A stretch of 64,000 bases of DNA from TPA_inf: Saccharomyces (taxonomy: Eukaryota), in NCBI GenBank assembly GCA_000146045.2, contig BK006947.3:96001-160000 (forward strand), written 5' to 3'. The notes beneath the pieces are model-generated. The model had not been told where the DNA came from and made no database searches. It saw nothing but the letters and a program-made list of their open reading frames with translations. Shown piece after piece: positions 39,384 through 44,385 of the stretch; position 1 is the stretch's first letter, and each line of letters starts with the position of its first letter. A program made the position numbers and the translations under genes.

Positions 39384-39868
39384 TTCCTTTCCTTCTCTTC
39401 CTTTCTTGCTTCTCGTTTGTTGAAAAGGTTCAGGTGCCTTCTTTATGTGGCGTGTATTTAGAATTTAACTAGGCTTGAGTTAAAATGTTTCTCCTCAATA
39501 CAGAAGATAGATACAAATGGCAAAAAAAAAAGTAAAAAATGGCCCAACTGTATGAGACGTATAAAAAACGTGAAGGGTGAAGAAAAGAATGCCACTGTCC
39601 AATTTTATGCTTAATACGAAAATAATTAACACACAGCCGTCAGTGTCCTCTTATCTGTAGGAAGGGTCCGTGCTATTGTTCTTAAAAGGGATTCTAGTTT
39701 TCCACATCTGTTTTTTCTTTCTTTCCCTCTTCCACGTCAAAAACTTCCTCTAACCGATGTCGGGTAAGCCATGGAAATTACGGGCGATGACTTTCGGCGG
39801 CTAACAACGAAACAACTAGGGAGTAATCATATAATCACAGGAAAAGAGTTGAGCAAGGATTTGGCAAA

Positions 39869-39875
39869 TATACAT

Positions 39876-39907
<32 letters not shown>

Positions 39908-39918
39908 GTGTGTGTGTG
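39869..39918. repeat. Compound microsatellite (CATA)n-(TA)n-(TG)n
   Basis: catacatacatacatacatacatatatatgtgtgtgtgtg lies in the BNI1 5' region / ALP1 3' flank. Confidence 0.9.
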
Positions 39919-39939
39919 GTATGGAGTATTATTCTAAAA

Positions 39940-41661
39940 TTATGAAAGGACATCCCAAACTCGTTGCCACCTTGTTTTACATTCTGGCTCTATCCATACC
40001 AACTCCTCTATTTGCCGGCGGTCAGAATCGATATCGATATCCTGCAGCTTCCAGAGTAAGCGGCACTTAAACCAAACTTGGAATGATAACCATATGGCCA
40101 AAAATAGGAATATTGATATATATGCAGCGACAAAGTCTATAGGCTGAAAAGTAGGTGCGAAAGCGGTGAAGCCCTGGATCAGAACAATTAGAGCGATGAA
40201 AAAAGATGCATAATATGCCAAAAAAGGCATCATTTGAGCTTTATAAGGTAAGTCATCCCTCGATATACCACGTTTCCTTATGGCTTGCATGAAACGGATA
40301 TGAGAAAATGAAATCAAAAGCCAGGCAAAGAAACCGGCCACACCAGTTATGTTCAATAACCAGTTAAAGGCCTTGCCGCTGCCTGCAGAAACCTCTAAGA
40401 AAGCCAAAAATCCGAACACGGATGTAGATAGAACAGAAAAGTATGGAACACCACCTCTGGTCACGTTAGACAAGAACCTTGGCGCCAAGCTATTTTTAGA
40501 CAGACTATACAGTACTCTTGAGCCAATGTACACATTAGAGTTACCTGCGGAAAGAATGGTGATTAGCACGACCGCGTTAAATATATCTGGGAGAACTTTT
40601 GTGCCTGAATTCTCAATGCTTATCATAAAGGGCGATGAAGAGACAAATATACCGTCACTATCCAACTTTGGGTCATTATATGGGACCAAAAGGCCAATGA
40701 AAAATAGTGAAAGAATGTAAAAGACTAGAATCCTCACTACAACTTTCTTTATTGCCCTCGGGAGAGCTTTTCTTGGGTTAGCCGCTTCACCAGCGGTTAT
40801 CCCAACCAGTTCAGTACCTTGGTACGTAAATGCAGCATTAATCAAAGAGGAAACCCATCCGAGAAAACGGCCCTCATTTTTATCACTGGAGATAATGCCA
40901 GGCCCCCAGGCTCCTGGATTTCTCCAGTACCTGAAACCGATGGGTCCATCAGATTGTCCCGCACCACACACAACACAGAATGAGAAAATGATAAAACCGA
41001 GCAACGCGATGACCTTTATGGAGGCAATACAAAACTCAAATTCTCCGTAATACTTTACGGGAAACATGTTCATTGAAGTTAACAGGCACCAAAAGATCAC
41101 GATCCAAGCCGCTAGAGGCACTGCTTCTGTCCAGTACTGAATAACTTTCCCCAAAACGGATAGTTCCAGTGCGAAGGTGAAACACCACGACAGCCAGTAC
41201 ATATATCCGTTAGTCGCTCCCAGCGCTGGCGACAGAAATCTTTGGGCGAAGACAGAAAATGAAGATGTAACCGGGATAAAAGTGACCATCTCTCCTAACG
41301 ATTGTGTAACGGAGTAAATCACTGTCCCCATAAATAAATACGATATCAAGGCACCAACAGGGCCGGCGTGTGCCAATGGCGGACCAATACCAATTATGAG
41401 GCCCGTCCCAATGGTGCCGCCGAGAGCAATCATCCCTATATGCCGCTGCTTTAACTTCCGCTTCACCTCTCTTCTTTCTTGTGGTGAGCTCTCTGTTTCC
41501 TTAGCAGCATCATCCTCGACTTTTCTCTCTGTGGTGATGGCCTTCGTAACGTTCTCCCCAGAATATTGTTCATCTACAAACTCCTCCTCTTTTATTATAG
41601 AGCTAGAATTGATTTCATACTGACCTTCCTTGGACATTTGTATGTTCACAGTTTCATCCAT
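39940..41661 (-). CDS. ALP1: Basic amino-acid (arginine) permease of the APC/YAT family (573 aa)
   Basis: About 12 transmembrane segments and the YAT-family motifs [22 protein letters not shown] and FxGWxxW. It is a paralogue of the adjacent LYP1. Confidence 0.85.
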
Positions 41662-41698
41662 GGCAATAATCGCAACACTACAATTTTGCCGCTAATAT

Positions 41699-42094
41699 AT
41701 GTCTATTGTGCTACGGAAGAGTAACAAAAAAAACAAAAACTGCATAACAAGCAAGTTTTATACAATACACATTATAAAAATTTCTACTCCGGTGTTCCGA
41801 GCTCCCATTGCCATTGGAGAAAGCCCTTATGTGGAGTGGAGCTGCCTACAGGTTGTTTTCAGGAAAGACATGGTTACAAAAAAGACGACATTCGCCCAAC
41901 TTATCACTCGCTTGAACCACTTTTTATGCCAAGCCCTTAAACGCCGCGACTCAAAAACATACATACTGTGCCGCACGGCAGTTTTTGGCGCTATGACACC
42001 CTTTTCCCCAAGAAAATCGCATATTAACAACAAATTACCCATGCAACCCAGGAAAAAAAAAATAGTCATTATATACGTAGTGCGCTTTCATTGA
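41699..42094 (+). CDS. BSC4: 131-codon ORF encoding a basic, domain-less protein whose stop is in a leaky readthrough context. Position and length match BSC4 (bypass of stop codon).
   Basis: It sits in the ALP1-LYP1 divergent promoter, 37 bp from the ALP1 ATG. The stop UGA at 42092-42094 is followed by CAA CUA, the stop-CAR-YYA readthrough motif. The same frame stays open for about 106 more codons, to 42415. Confidence 0.6.
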   Translation: MSIVLRKSNKKNKNCITSKFYTIHIIKISTPVFRAPIAIGESPYVEWSCLQVVFRKDMVTKKTTFAQLITRLNHFLCQALKRRDSKTYILCRTAVFGAMTPFSPRKSHINNKLPMQPRKKKIVIIYVVRFH

Positions 42095-42549
42095 CAACTA
42101 CATTTTTGTGCAACTTTTGGTACACCGCTACACGTATTGAAAGCGCAAAAGACTATAGCTCCTCCAGCAGGGAAAACTCACATCGGTGGGCAACAACATA
42201 GAATATGTCAAAGTTGTAAAAACACCCACGAGTGCATACCACTTTTCAACATTACCGGGGAAAAAAAAGTTTGCACCTCGTTCCCAGAAACATACGCAGG
42301 AGTGACTGCGCTAGTGACAGATTGCTCTTTCCGTTGGAAAAAGAAACGACTTTTTTTCGCAAAAGTACCCGAAATCCTCGGAATTTTGCAAATAGTCGAT
42401 GATCACAATTGTTAGGTGACTATTTAACAAGGACGGCGAGGAGAACTGAAAAAAAAGCAACCTATCCGGCCTCCTCTAGTTACACAAACAAGACAAAGAA
42501 ATTGCATTGTCTATAACGATAACAAAAGACATCGTATATATATATATAT

Positions 42550-44385
42550 ATGGGCAGGTTTAGTAACATAATAACGTCCAATAAATGGGACGAGAAACAA
42601 AACAACATTGGCGAACAGAGCATGCAGGAATTACCAGAAGACCAGATAGAACATGAGATGGAAGCAATAGATCCAAGTAATAAGACGACCCCATACTCTA
42701 TTGATGAGAAACAGTACAACACAAAAAAGAAGCATGGGTCATTGCAAGGTGGCGCAATTGCTGATGTAAATTCGATAACTAATTCGTTAACAAGATTGCA
42801 AGTTGTCTCTCATGAAACAGATATTAACGAGGATGAAGAAGAAGCCCACTATGAGGATAAACACGTGAAGAGAGCCTTGAAGCAAAGACACATTGGTATG
42901 ATTGCACTAGGTGGTACAATCGGTACTGGTCTTTTCGTTGGTATCTCCACTCCCTTGAGTAATGCTGGCCCTGTGGGGTCCCTGATTGCTTACATTTTCA
43001 TGGGCACCATTGTCTACTTCGTTACCCAGTCACTTGGTGAGATGGCTACGTTTATCCCCGTGACATCATCTATCACTGTCTTTTCGAAGAGGTTCTTATC
43101 ACCTGCATTCGGTGTTTCTAACGGCTACATGTACTGGTTCAATTGGGCTATTACTTATGCTGTGGAGGTTTCTGTCATTGGCCAAGTTATTGAATACTGG
43201 ACAGATAAAGTTCCATTAGCGGCCTGGATTGCGATATTCTGGGTAATTATTACTTTGATGAATTTTTTCCCTGTCAAAGTTTATGGTGAATTTGAGTTCT
43301 GGGTGGCCTCTGTTAAAGTTTTAGCCATTATGGGTTACTTGATATATGCTTTGATTATTGTCTGCGGTGGATCCCACCAGGGCCCTATCGGTTTCAGGTA
43401 CTGGAGAAATCCAGGAGCCTGGGGGCCAGGCATCATCTCCAGTGATAAAAGTGAAGGCCGTTTTCTCGGATGGGTCTCCTCCTTGATTAATGCTGCATTT
43501 ACGTACCAAGGTACTGAACTGGTTGGGATCACCGCTGGTGAAGCGGCTAACCCAAGAAAGACCGTTCCAAGAGCTATCAATAAAGTCGTCTTTAGAATCG
43601 TACTATTCTATATTATGTCTTTGTTCTTTATTGGTCTACTGGTTCCATACAACGATTCCCGTTTATCTGCTAGTTCTGCTGTTATTGCATCATCACCCTT
43701 CGTTATTTCCATTCAAAACGCTGGTACTTATGCTCTTCCAGATATTTTCAACGCCGTGGTGTTGATTACTGTTGTATCTGCCGCTAATTCGAATGTTTAC
43801 GTTGGTTCCCGTGTTCTTTACTCTTTAGCTAGGACTGGTAACGCACCAAAGCAATTTGGATACGTCACCAGACAGGGTGTTCCATATCTCGGTGTTGTTT
43901 GCACTGCTGCATTGGGTCTTTTGGCATTCCTGGTTGTCAATAACAATGCAAACACTGCATTTAACTGGTTGATCAACATTTCCACTTTGGCTGGGTTATG
44001 CGCCTGGTTATTCATCTCTTTGGCACATATTAGGTTCATGCAAGCTTTAAAGCACCGTGGTATTTCTCGTGATGATCTGCCCTTCAAGGCCAAATTGATG
44101 CCTTATGGTGCCTACTACGCAGCCTTTTTTGTCACCGTCATCATATTCATCCAAGGGTTCCAAGCGTTCTGTCCGTTCAAAGTTTCTGAGTTTTTCACAT
44201 CTTACATCTCCTTGATTCTTTTAGCCGTTGTGTTCATTGGTTGCCAGATATACTACAAATGCAGATTTATTTGGAAGCTAGAAGATATTGACATCGATTC
44301 CGACAGAAGAGAAATCGAAGCAATTATTTGGGAAGACGACGAGCCTAAGAATTTATGGGAGAAATTCTGGGCTGCTGTTGCATAG
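42550..44385 (+). CDS. LYP1: Lysine permease, APC/YAT family (611 aa)
   Basis: Strong paralogy to ALP1 across the window, including the shared [18 protein letters not shown] block. Length matches Lyp1. Confidence 0.9.

What the first reader, a model, noticed from the sequence alone, without database searches (positions are those of the whole stretch)
41662..42549. BSC4: short domain-less ORF inside the ALP1/LYP1 divergent promoter with a leaky-stop context and a long in-frame extension
The 131-codon ORF (41699-42094) begins only 37 bp from the divergently transcribed ALP1 start codon. It has no recognisable fold or motif, only basic low-complexity sequence. It terminates in UGA-CAA-CUA, the stop-CAR-YYA context known to promote efficient stop-codon readthrough in yeast. 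The same frame remains open for about 106 further codons, to the stop at 42413-42415, and runs through the ORF-track entry 42137-42415. From established knowledge this is BSC4. It was found in a screen for such readthrough contexts and later argued to be a de novo originated gene. The sequence here shows both the context and the extension.
Basis: partly seen in the sequence, partly recalled or inferred. Interest (0 to 1): 0.6.

Follow-up and report, generated by a model that had tools for sequence, protein, structure and literature searches.

The report
BSC4: known, polymorphic yeast promoter ORF
This is the already well-studied baker's-yeast ORF BSC4, lying in the shared promoter of two amino-acid permease genes; its leaky stop codon and long in-frame tail are really there, but they are in frame with the ORF in only some strains and show no clear sign of being conserved as protein.

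Summary
There is a 131-codon ATG ORF at 41699-42094. It starts 37 bp from the divergent ALP1 start codon and ends in TGA-CAA-CTA. The frame then stays open for 106 more codons, to TAG at 42413-42415. The protein is letter-for-letter the commonest S. cerevisiae Bsc4p allele (YNL269W), between ALP1 and LYP1. It has no Pfam domain and no confident AlphaFold fold. No relative turned up outside S. cerevisiae in 5.8 billion (word-indexed) or 1.84 billion (exhaustive) proteins.

Six other Saccharomyces species have an alignable but stop- and frameshift-ridden region there, which fits de novo origin. New here, and in line with a 2025 preprint: only 8 of 23 fetched S. cerevisiae loci keep the 131-codon ORF with the in-frame leaky stop and tail.
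- Eleven carry A9 instead of A10 at 42053-42062 and end at TAG-TCA-TTA after 121 codons.
- The divergent alleles are frameshifted (HN1, YJM1447) or lack the ATG (SX2).

The ORF also contains ALP1's conserved TATA box, and the tail runs through conserved blocks upstream of LYP1.

Verdict: already known. It is most likely a young, unconstrained promoter ORF whose readthrough architecture is coincidental.

The parts
39940..41661 (-). ALP1 (YNL270C), a basic amino-acid permease, transcribed divergently from the ORF
   Evidence: 573-aa ORF. Pfam AA_permease E=3.4e-161. 100% identical to Alp1p of S. cerevisiae.
41662..41698 (.). 37-bp gap between the ALP1 ATG and the BSC4 ATG. It contains the block TTTTGCCGCT (41684-41693), conserved in at least 6 of 7 species, and an in-frame TAA at 41693, one codon before the ATG.
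41699..42094 (+). BSC4 / YNL269W ORF: 131 codons plus TGA. The ATG is in a weak context (T at -3).
   Evidence: Exact match to the commonest S. cerevisiae Bsc4p allele, P0122, seen on 105 contigs.
41757..41765 (-). Conserved TATA box read on the ALP1 strand (TATAAAA in S. cerevisiae, TATATAA in most other species), about 100 bp upstream of the ALP1 ATG. It lies inside BSC4 codons 20-23. Coordinates are approximate, and its function as the ALP1 TATA box is inferred, not shown.
   Evidence: Seven-species alignment and reverse-complement reading.
41871..41882 (.). Non-coding conserved block TGGTTACAAAAA inside the ORF, kept in species that lack the ORF
   Evidence: at least 6 of 7 species identical in every column; 10 of 12 columns identical in all 7.
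41946..41957 (.). Non-coding conserved block GCGAC(C)CCAAAAA inside the ORF
42053..42062 (+). A10 homopolymer run. A9 in 12 of 21 fetched loci and in the divergent strain SX2. The one-base difference decides whether the ORF ends at TAG after 121 codons or runs on to the leaky TGA.
42092..42100 (+). TGA-CAA-CTA: the stop codon plus a readthrough-promoting hexanucleotide (fits CAR-YYA and CAR-NBA)
   Evidence: Reporter evidence for the CAA-CUA hexanucleotide in PMC4446449 and bioRxiv 10.1101/2023.06.19.543857.
42095..42415 (+). In-frame extension: 106 sense codons with no ATG, then TAG at 42413-42415. It runs through conserved blocks upstream of LYP1.
   Evidence: No Pfam hit and no homologue. 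Open in 18 of 23 fetched loci, but in frame with the ATG-ORF in only 8.
42338..42377 (.). Cluster of conserved upstream blocks inside the extension: AAAAAGAAAC, TTTTTCGC and CGAAATCC
42421..42434 (+). Conserved TATTTAACAAGGAC, a TATA-like element about 120 bp upstream of the LYP1 ATG and 5 bp after the stop of the extension. Its function is inferred, not shown.
42533..42549 (.). (TA)n microsatellite abutting the LYP1 ATG, with copy number varying among strains
42550..44385 (+). LYP1 (YNL268W), lysine permease and paralogue of ALP1
   Evidence: 611-aa ORF. Pfam AA_permease E=7.7e-146.

Best explanation
The interval is the shared divergent promoter of the paralogous permease genes ALP1 and LYP1 on S. 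cerevisiae chromosome XIV. In the S288C-type haplotype it happens to hold the annotated ORF BSC4/YNL269W.

The ORF arose de novo from non-coding promoter DNA within the S. cerevisiae lineage. A G-to-A change made the ATG, and small indels opened the frame. It is still polymorphic.

A one-base length difference in an A-run (A10 here, A9 elsewhere and probably ancestral) puts the ORF in frame with a pre-existing TGA-CAA-CTA and a pre-existing 106-codon stop-free stretch.

Whenever this ORF is translated, the UGA-CAA-CUA context lets near-cognate tRNAs outcompete release factor at a raised frequency. A fraction of ribosomes would then continue towards a 238-residue product, provided the mRNA reaches 42415.

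What is shown: the sequence architecture, the lack of homologues, the non-coding state in six sister species, and the polymorphism.
What comes from the literature: the leakiness of the hexanucleotide in reporters.
What is inferred: that readthrough here is a passive by-product and not a selected recoding device, and that any protein made is under little or no constraint (a 'proto-gene' or transient ORF).
For: Identity: exact match to Bsc4p.

Orphan status:
- The fused 238-aa query hits only the BSC4 cluster among 5.8 billion proteins, and nothing matches the extension.
- Exhaustive phmmer against 1.84 billion representatives gives 3 hits. All are S. cerevisiae alleles whose sequences are frame-shifted mosaics of BSC4.

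Non-coding orthologues:
- The S. paradoxus, mikatae, kudriavzevii, arboricola, uvarum and eubayanus regions align (74% to 57% identity).
- Each carries at least 5 stops in every frame. BSC4-like peptide pieces are scattered over different frames.
- Five of the six have GTG or GTA at the ATG position. S. arboricola has ATG but stops after 3 codons.

Polymorphism:
- Only 8 of 23 fetched S. cerevisiae loci have 131 codons plus an in-frame TGA-CAACTA plus a 106-codon tail.
- Eleven end at TAG-TCATTA after 121 codons.
- The others have 99 or 80 codons, a 123-codon form with residues 12-63 in another frame, or no ATG.
- A preprint reports the ORF intact in 49 of 94 and 504 of 1011 strains (PMC12157680).

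Indels: 11 distinct events in ORF plus tail, of which only 2 are multiples of three.

No significant codon periodicity of substitutions: 6/9/15 against YJM1447 and 41/29/43 against S. paradoxus.

Pre-existing motif: TGACAACTA is present in the A9, HN1 and YJM1447 haplotypes, where it is out of frame or lies behind earlier stops. S. paradoxus has TAACAACTG at that position.

Promoter content: ALP1's conserved TATA box and other seven-species blocks lie inside the ORF and the tail.

No stimulatory RNA structure follows the stop (z=-0.45).

Leaky context: reporter data in PMC4446449.
Against: - The joint occurrence of a 131-codon ORF, a CAR-YYA stop context and a 106-codon open tail is improbable by chance (0 of 20,000 simulations; component probabilities 0.0076, 0.0033 and 0.0078).
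- Within the main clade, the six SNPs in codons 1-118 split 2 nonsynonymous to 4 synonymous. The other two frames give 6:0 and 4:2. P=0.023 against all-site expectation but 0.09 against a transitions-only expectation. This is a weak hint of protein-level constraint.
- The literature reports a foldable, beta-rich molten-globule protein (Bungard 2017) and synthetic lethality of the deletion with RPN4 and DUN1 (both via PMC9544372 and PMC9233646).
- My strain sample is stratified by ALP1 allele, not random. A9 is called ancestral on the strength of one divergent strain (SX2).
Confidence: 0.6

Rival explanations
1. BSC4 is a functional de novo protein-coding gene that uses programmed stop-codon readthrough to make two isoforms (131 aa and about 238 aa). 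Both are maintained by selection.
For: - Leaky CAR-YYA context and a long open tail.
- The combination is improbable by chance.
- Reporter readthrough for the hexanucleotide (PMC4446449), and the extension is listed as validated (PMC4999894).
- Reported stationary-phase induction and synthetic lethality (PMC9544372).
- A 2:4 nonsynonymous to synonymous SNP split.
Against: - The in-frame architecture is present in only 8 of 23 fetched loci and is absent from the divergent lineages.
- The tail has no ATG, no homologue and no domain.
- The tail overlaps conserved blocks upstream of LYP1 and ends 5 bp before LYP1's TATA-like element, so an mRNA covering it would have to run through the LYP1 promoter.
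- Indels are not in multiples of three.
- A preprint finds no matching transcription start or poly(A) sites (PMC12157680).
- The deletion phenotype may be due to removed promoter DNA (PMC9233646).
Confidence: 0.08
2. There is no gene at all. YNL269W is a chance ORF in a promoter and is never productively transcribed or translated. It is an annotation artefact that should be classed as dubious.
For: - PMC12157680 reports the ORF intact in about half of strains and no transcription start or poly(A) evidence. It counts only 38 bases to ALP1, closer than any accepted divergent gene pair (the nearest is 77 bases).
- My data show ALP1's TATA box inside the ORF, frameshift polymorphism and a weak ATG context.
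- Expression is below 15 TPM in deep transcriptomes (PMC7841160).
Against: - The transcript was nevertheless classified as a de novo transcript (PMC7841160).
- RT-PCR and readthrough assays are reported by Cai 2008 and Namy 2003 (via the reviews).
- One source refers to proteomic confirmation (PMC3209793).
- There is a weak excess of synonymous SNPs.
- Pervasive low-level translation of such ORFs is common in yeast (background knowledge).
Confidence: 0.27
3. BSC4 is not de novo. It is a highly diverged, truncated duplicate (gene fission) of VPS38, as one preprint proposes.
For: bioRxiv 10.1101/2023.05.28.542624 reports a 27%-identity alignment with the Vps38 C-terminus. The author rates the case as marginal.
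Against: - Exhaustive phmmer over 1.84 billion representatives returns only S. cerevisiae BSC4 alleles at E<=0.001.
- The word-indexed search finds nothing else at E<=0.01.
- The syntenic region aligns at the DNA level to non-coding promoter DNA in six species, which gives a direct ancestor that is not a gene copy.
- A 2025 review judges the Vps38 match to lie in the twilight zone (PMC12684174).
Confidence: 0.02

Closest known systems
BSC4 / YNL269W of Saccharomyces cerevisiae (Namy et al. 2003; Cai et al. 2008)
   Same: It is this gene. The protein sequence is identical, the position between ALP1 and LYP1 is the same, and so are the stop context and the 106-codon (107-residue) extension.
   Different: Nothing differs in the window. 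What I add is that this architecture belongs to one haplotype group and not to the species. That had already been argued in PMC12157680.
TMV-type leaky stop (stop-CAR-YYA, or CAR-NBA in yeast), as in TMV replicase and yeast PDE2 and IMP3
   Same: UGA is followed by CAA-CUA, one base away from the TMV hexanucleotide CAA-UUA. It promotes near-cognate tRNA decoding of the stop in reporters (PMC4446449).
   Different: In TMV, and in yeast PDE2 (per PMC4446449), the readthrough product is functional. TMV conservation is background knowledge and was not tested here. In BSC4 the motif predates its being in frame with the ORF. The tail is non-conserved promoter DNA, and the frame relation is polymorphic.
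Yeast proto-genes, transient translated ORFs and SGD 'dubious' ORFs; the de novo gene MDF1
   Same: A species-restricted short ORF born in non-coding DNA next to a divergent promoter, with low expression, no homologues and no stable predicted fold (PMC7841160).
   Different: BSC4 is annotated as verified and has biochemical work on the purified protein. At 131 codons it is longer than most proto-genes.

Membership tests
BSC4 / YNL269W | Protein sequence identical or nearly identical to the S. cerevisiae Bsc4p reference | tested here: met
   Exact match to P0122. It is in a cluster of 27 sequences whose named members are all S. cerevisiae, several labelled BSC4/Bsc4p. 98% identical to the cluster representative.
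BSC4 / YNL269W | Located between divergently oriented ALP1 (YNL270C) and LYP1 (YNL268W), on the LYP1 strand | tested here: met
   ORF map and Pfam. The same gene order (PIK1-LYP1-ALP1-BNI1) is found in S. cerevisiae strains and six sister species.
Programmed stop-codon readthrough (CAR-YYA / CAR-NBA class) | The stop codon is followed immediately by CAR-YYA or CAR-NBA | tested here: met
   TGA CAA CTA at 42092-42100.
Programmed stop-codon readthrough (CAR-YYA / CAR-NBA class) | In-frame, stop-free extension downstream of the leaky stop | tested here: met
   106 codons to TAG at 42413-42415.
Programmed stop-codon readthrough (CAR-YYA / CAR-NBA class) | Readthrough measured, and the extended protein made from the native mRNA | not testable with these tools
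   Only reporter data for the hexanucleotide are available (PMC4446449; bioRxiv 10.1101/2023.06.19.543857). Namy 2003 is not held. Whether an mRNA reaches 42415 is unknown, and PMC12157680 reports no matching poly(A) sites.
Programmed stop-codon readthrough (CAR-YYA / CAR-NBA class) | Stop context, frame relation and extension conserved among relatives, as the signature of selection on the recoding event | tested here: not met
   In frame in 8 of 23 fetched S. cerevisiae loci. The extension is broken in L016, L018, YJM1447, HN1 and SX2. No open frame exists in the six sister species.
De novo originated protein-coding gene | No homologue outside the lineage | tested here: met
   only S. cerevisiae alleles are found.
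De novo originated protein-coding gene | The syntenic orthologous DNA in outgroups is alignable and lacks the ORF | tested here: met
   Seven-species alignment. At least 5 stops in every frame, frameshifts, and no ATG in five of the six outgroups.
De novo originated protein-coding gene | The ORF is transcribed and translated | not testable with these tools
   The literature conflicts. Reviews cite RT-PCR and readthrough assays. Expression is below 15 TPM (PMC7841160). PMC12157680 reports no proper transcript ends.
De novo originated protein-coding gene | The ORF is fixed in the species and under purifying selection | tested here: not met
   The ORF is polymorphic (131, 123, 121, 99 and 80 codons, or no ATG). 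9 of 11 indel events are not multiples of three. The nonsynonymous to synonymous split of 2:4 is not significant against a transitions-only expectation (P=0.09).
Any curated protein domain family (Pfam) | A match above the family's gathering score | tested here: not met
   Best hits 12.9 and 17 bits against cut-offs of about 27. AlphaFold2 mean pLDDT 41.6.

The most novel reading that the evidence does not exclude
The S288C-type haplotype may show a de novo ORF in the act of growing. A one-base slip in an A-run fused a 121-codon ORF, through a leaky UGA-CAA-CUA, to a further 106 open codons. The cell would then sample a 238-residue product at low dosage before any stop-loss mutation, and this product would have a haplotype-specific function. 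Leaky stops would thus serve as a trial route for extending young genes.
Probability: 0.05. Interest if true: 0.55.

Novelty: already known. Interest (0 to 1): 0.12.

Why it matters
BSC4 is the textbook first example of a de novo gene, and its hexanucleotide is a standard cellular readthrough context in yeast reporters. Re-finding it adds nothing new.

The useful point is a caution. The readthrough architecture is specific to one haplotype group and sits on promoter DNA. BSC4 is therefore a weak exemplar both of programmed readthrough and of a fixed, functional de novo gene. Phenotypes of its deletion may instead reflect damage to the ALP1/LYP1 promoter.

Tried and rejected
- The primary papers could not be read: Namy 2003 (PMC154216), Cai 2008 (PMC2390625) and Namy 2001 (PMC1084031) are not held. 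Readthrough efficiencies are therefore not quoted, and claims about them rest on secondary sources.
- RNA folding of 42086-42200 showed no unusual structure after the stop (z=-0.45).
- Rfam at E<=1 gave only sub-threshold snoRNA noise.
- No inverted repeats were found, and only one trivial A-run direct repeat. There is thus no trace of the ALP1/LYP1 inverted duplication in the spacer.
- The AlphaFold2 model was too poor (pLDDT 41.6) to justify a fold search.
- TGACARYYA is not enriched in the window: 2 matches against 5.8 expected.
- The indel-length list printed is invalid, because gaps shared across the multiple alignment were counted. It was replaced by the pairwise count.
- The Vps38-homology proposal was rejected on the negative exhaustive search and the DNA-level synteny. 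Vps38 itself was not aligned directly.
- Codon-position periodicity of substitutions was looked for and was not significant by my own rough chi-square.

Full report
**Observation.** The stretch 41400-42800 and the ORF list show a 131-codon ATG-ORF at 41699-42094 on the plus strand. ALP1 (39940-41661, minus strand, 573 aa) starts 37 bp away and LYP1 (42550-44385, plus strand, 611 aa) follows. Both are amino-acid permeases by Pfam (E=3e-161 and 8e-146). BNI1-sized and PIK1-sized ORFs flank them. Translating 41699-42430 in one frame gives the 131 residues, a stop, 106 further sense codons and then TAG at 42413-42415. The stop is TGA at 42092-42094 and is followed by CAA CTA. The extension contains no in-frame ATG, and a TAA lies one codon upstream of the start.

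**Chance.**
- In 20,000 first-order Markov simulations of an 888-bp region with this composition, an ATG-ORF of at least 131 codons appeared in any frame in 0.76% of regions. None also had an in-frame extension of at least 106 codons.
- With local composition, the ORF frame is open with P=9e-4 and the extension with P=7.8e-3.
- CAR-YYA follows a stop with P=0.0033.
- Of 34 ATG-ORFs of at least 100 codons in the window, only this one has the motif. The nonamer TGACARYYA is not enriched overall: 2 matches against 5.8 expected.

So the ORF alone is within what a yeast genome yields by chance. That judgement is my own estimate from background knowledge of roughly 6,000 intergenic regions. The three features together are improbable. 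However, the locus was first found by a screen for such features, so part of that improbability is ascertainment.

**Identity.** The 131-aa translation is an exact member (P0122, seen on 105 contigs) of a cluster of 27 sequences. Its named members are all S. cerevisiae, several labelled BSC4 or Bsc4p. This is YNL269W.

**Homology and fold.**
- A 238-aa fused query (ORF, W in place of the stop, extension) against 5.8 billion proteins hit only that cluster. Nothing matched the extension.
- An exhaustive phmmer of the ORF against 1.84 billion cluster representatives gave three hits. All three are S. cerevisiae gene models (strains SX2, BDH, HN1/BAQ). Their sequences are frame-shifted mosaics of BSC4.
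- Pfam gives nothing near threshold.
- AlphaFold2 gives mean pLDDT 41.6, with a mostly beta-strand, one-helix pattern at low confidence.
- A preprint's proposal of Vps38 ancestry finds no support in these searches. A 2025 review also doubts it.

**Orthologous regions.** I used ALP1 orthologues to fetch the ALP1-LYP1 spacer from S. kudriavzevii, S. paradoxus, S. mikatae, S. arboricola, S. uvarum and S. eubayanus. Gene order is conserved. The spacers align to the window at 74% (S. paradoxus) down to 57% identity. In each species the orthologous stretch has at least 5 stops in every frame. BSC4-like peptide fragments jump between frames. The ATG position reads GTG or GTA in five of the six; S. 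arboricola has ATG but stops after three codons. This reproduces the published synteny argument for de novo origin (PMC9544372, PMC12684174). S. mikatae has its own 93-codon ORF in the orthologous frame of BSC4 codons 81-168, open across the S. cerevisiae stop position. It shows that ORFs come and go in this spacer.

**The region is a promoter.** Blocks identical in at least 6 of 7 species lie in several places:
- In the 37-bp gap: TTTTGCCGCT.
- Inside the ORF: TGGTTACAAAAA and GCGACCCCAAAAA.
- Inside the extension: AAAAAGAAAC, TTTTTCGC and CGAAATCC.
- Five bp after the extension's stop: TATTTAACAAGGAC, a TATA-like element about 120 bp upstream of LYP1.

Read on the ALP1 strand, a TATA box (TATAAAA or TATATAA) about 100 bp upstream of the ALP1 ATG is conserved in six of seven species. 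It falls in BSC4 codons 20-23. ALP1's core promoter, and most likely its transcription start, therefore lie inside BSC4. An mRNA able to encode the whole extension would have to run through the region upstream of LYP1. This last point is inference; no transcript data were available here.

**Variation within S. cerevisiae.** I fetched 21 loci through three ALP1 alleles and two more through the frame-shifted hits. The sample is stratified by allele, not random.
- Eight of the 23 share the window's state: 131 codons, in-frame TGA-CAACTA and a 106-codon tail.
- Eleven have A9 instead of A10 at 42053-42062. They end after 121 codons at TAG-TCA-TTA, followed by only 4-24 open codons.
- L012 has 99 codons, through a CG insertion at 41944.
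- YJM1447 has 80 codons, through a +1 A at 41725.
- HN1 has 123 codons, with residues 12-63 read in a different frame.
- SX2 has GTG at the start position, like S. paradoxus.

The stop-free stretch after TGACAACTA exists in 18 of the 23 loci but is in frame with the ATG-ORF in only 8. It is cut to 69, 26 or 15 codons in L016/L018, SX2 and HN1/YJM1447. SX2 also has A9, so A10 is probably the derived state (parsimony on few haplotypes). The motif TGACAACTA predates its frame relation to the ORF; S. paradoxus has TAACAACTG there.

Of 11 distinct indel events in ORF plus tail, only 2 are multiples of three. Substitutions show no significant codon periodicity.

One hint points the other way. The six main-clade SNPs in codons 1-118 split 2 nonsynonymous to 4 synonymous, against 6:0 and 4:2 in the other frames. 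P=0.023 against all sites but 0.09 against a transitions-only expectation, and all six are transitions.

These results agree with a 2025 preprint (PMC12157680). It reports the ORF intact in 49 of 94 and 504 of 1011 strains and finds no matching transcript ends. It counts only 38 bases to ALP1 and proposes that BSC4 be reclassified as dubious.

**Readthrough.**
- The CAA-CUA hexanucleotide gives robust, eIF3-dependent readthrough in dual reporters (PMC4446449). It is used as a standard leaky context with all three stop codons (bioRxiv 10.1101/2023.06.19.543857).
- The extension is tabulated as 131/107 residues among validated cases, citing Namy 2003 (PMC4999894).
- No unusual RNA structure follows the stop, and no Rfam family matches.

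The mechanism is therefore the ordinary one: near-cognate tRNA decoding favoured by the 3' context. Whether it happens on a native mRNA that reaches 42415 is not shown by anything I could read.

**Verdict.** The finding is a correct re-identification of a well-known locus.
- Best reading, about 0.6: a young, polymorphic, essentially unconstrained ORF born in the ALP1/LYP1 promoter. Its leaky stop and long tail are coincidental and specific to the S288C-type haplotype.
- Rival, about 0.27: the ORF is never productively expressed (dubious).
- Rival, about 0.08: a truly functional two-isoform de novo gene.
- Rival, about 0.02: a diverged Vps38 fragment.

Novelty: already known. Interest: low.

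Noticed in passing
window 41750-43750; L008 (YJM1447) and L029 (HN1): YJM1447 carries a strongly divergent haplotype covering BSC4 and the 5' half of LYP1: 3-14% divergence in 250-bp bins, against 1.6% or less in most flanking bins. HN1 shares its variants in the spacer. This could be an old balanced haplotype or an introgression.
   Followed up: partly
window 42533-42549: A (TA)n microsatellite directly abutting the LYP1 start codon varies in repeat number among S. cerevisiae strains and is much shorter in S. paradoxus.
   Followed up: partly
L001 (S. kudriavzevii), inside the ALP1-LYP1 spacer, opposite window ~42102: A roughly 311-bp insertion is found only in S. kudriavzevii, just after the position of the BSC4 stop. 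Part of it begins TGTTGGAAC..., which resembles a Ty LTR end. It may be a solo LTR; this was not verified.
   Followed up: no
L004 3452-3733, minus strand (S. mikatae): A 93-aa ORF was called in the S. mikatae spacer. It lies in the orthologous reading frame of BSC4 codons 81-168 (33% identity, E=1e-5 pairwise) and is open across the position of the S. cerevisiae stop codon.
   Followed up: partly
window 41757-41765, minus strand: The conserved TATA box of ALP1 lies inside BSC4 codons 20-23, so the ALP1 core promoter and the BSC4 coding sequence occupy the same DNA.
   Followed up: yes
L030 (S. cerevisiae SX2), position orthologous to window 41699: The Chinese wild isolate SX2 has GTG instead of the BSC4 ATG, the same state as S. 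paradoxus. The start codon is therefore younger than the species or has been lost in that lineage.
   Followed up: partly
window 39940-41661 and 42550-44385; names: The head-to-head ALP1/LYP1 permease pair appears to be ancient. Adjacent, consecutively numbered homologues are listed in Eremothecium (AFR667C/AFR668W), Lachancea, Torulaspora, Naumovozyma and Tetrapisispora. No inverted-repeat trace of the duplication remains in the spacer.
   Followed up: no
window 39771-40070, plus strand: A 99-aa ORF overlaps the 3' end of ALP1 on the opposite strand and runs through a CATA/TACA-rich repeat (peptide ...HIHTYIHTYIYMCVC...). It is called as a gene in some strain assemblies (L023, L027, L028). 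It is probably another chance ORF.
   Followed up: no
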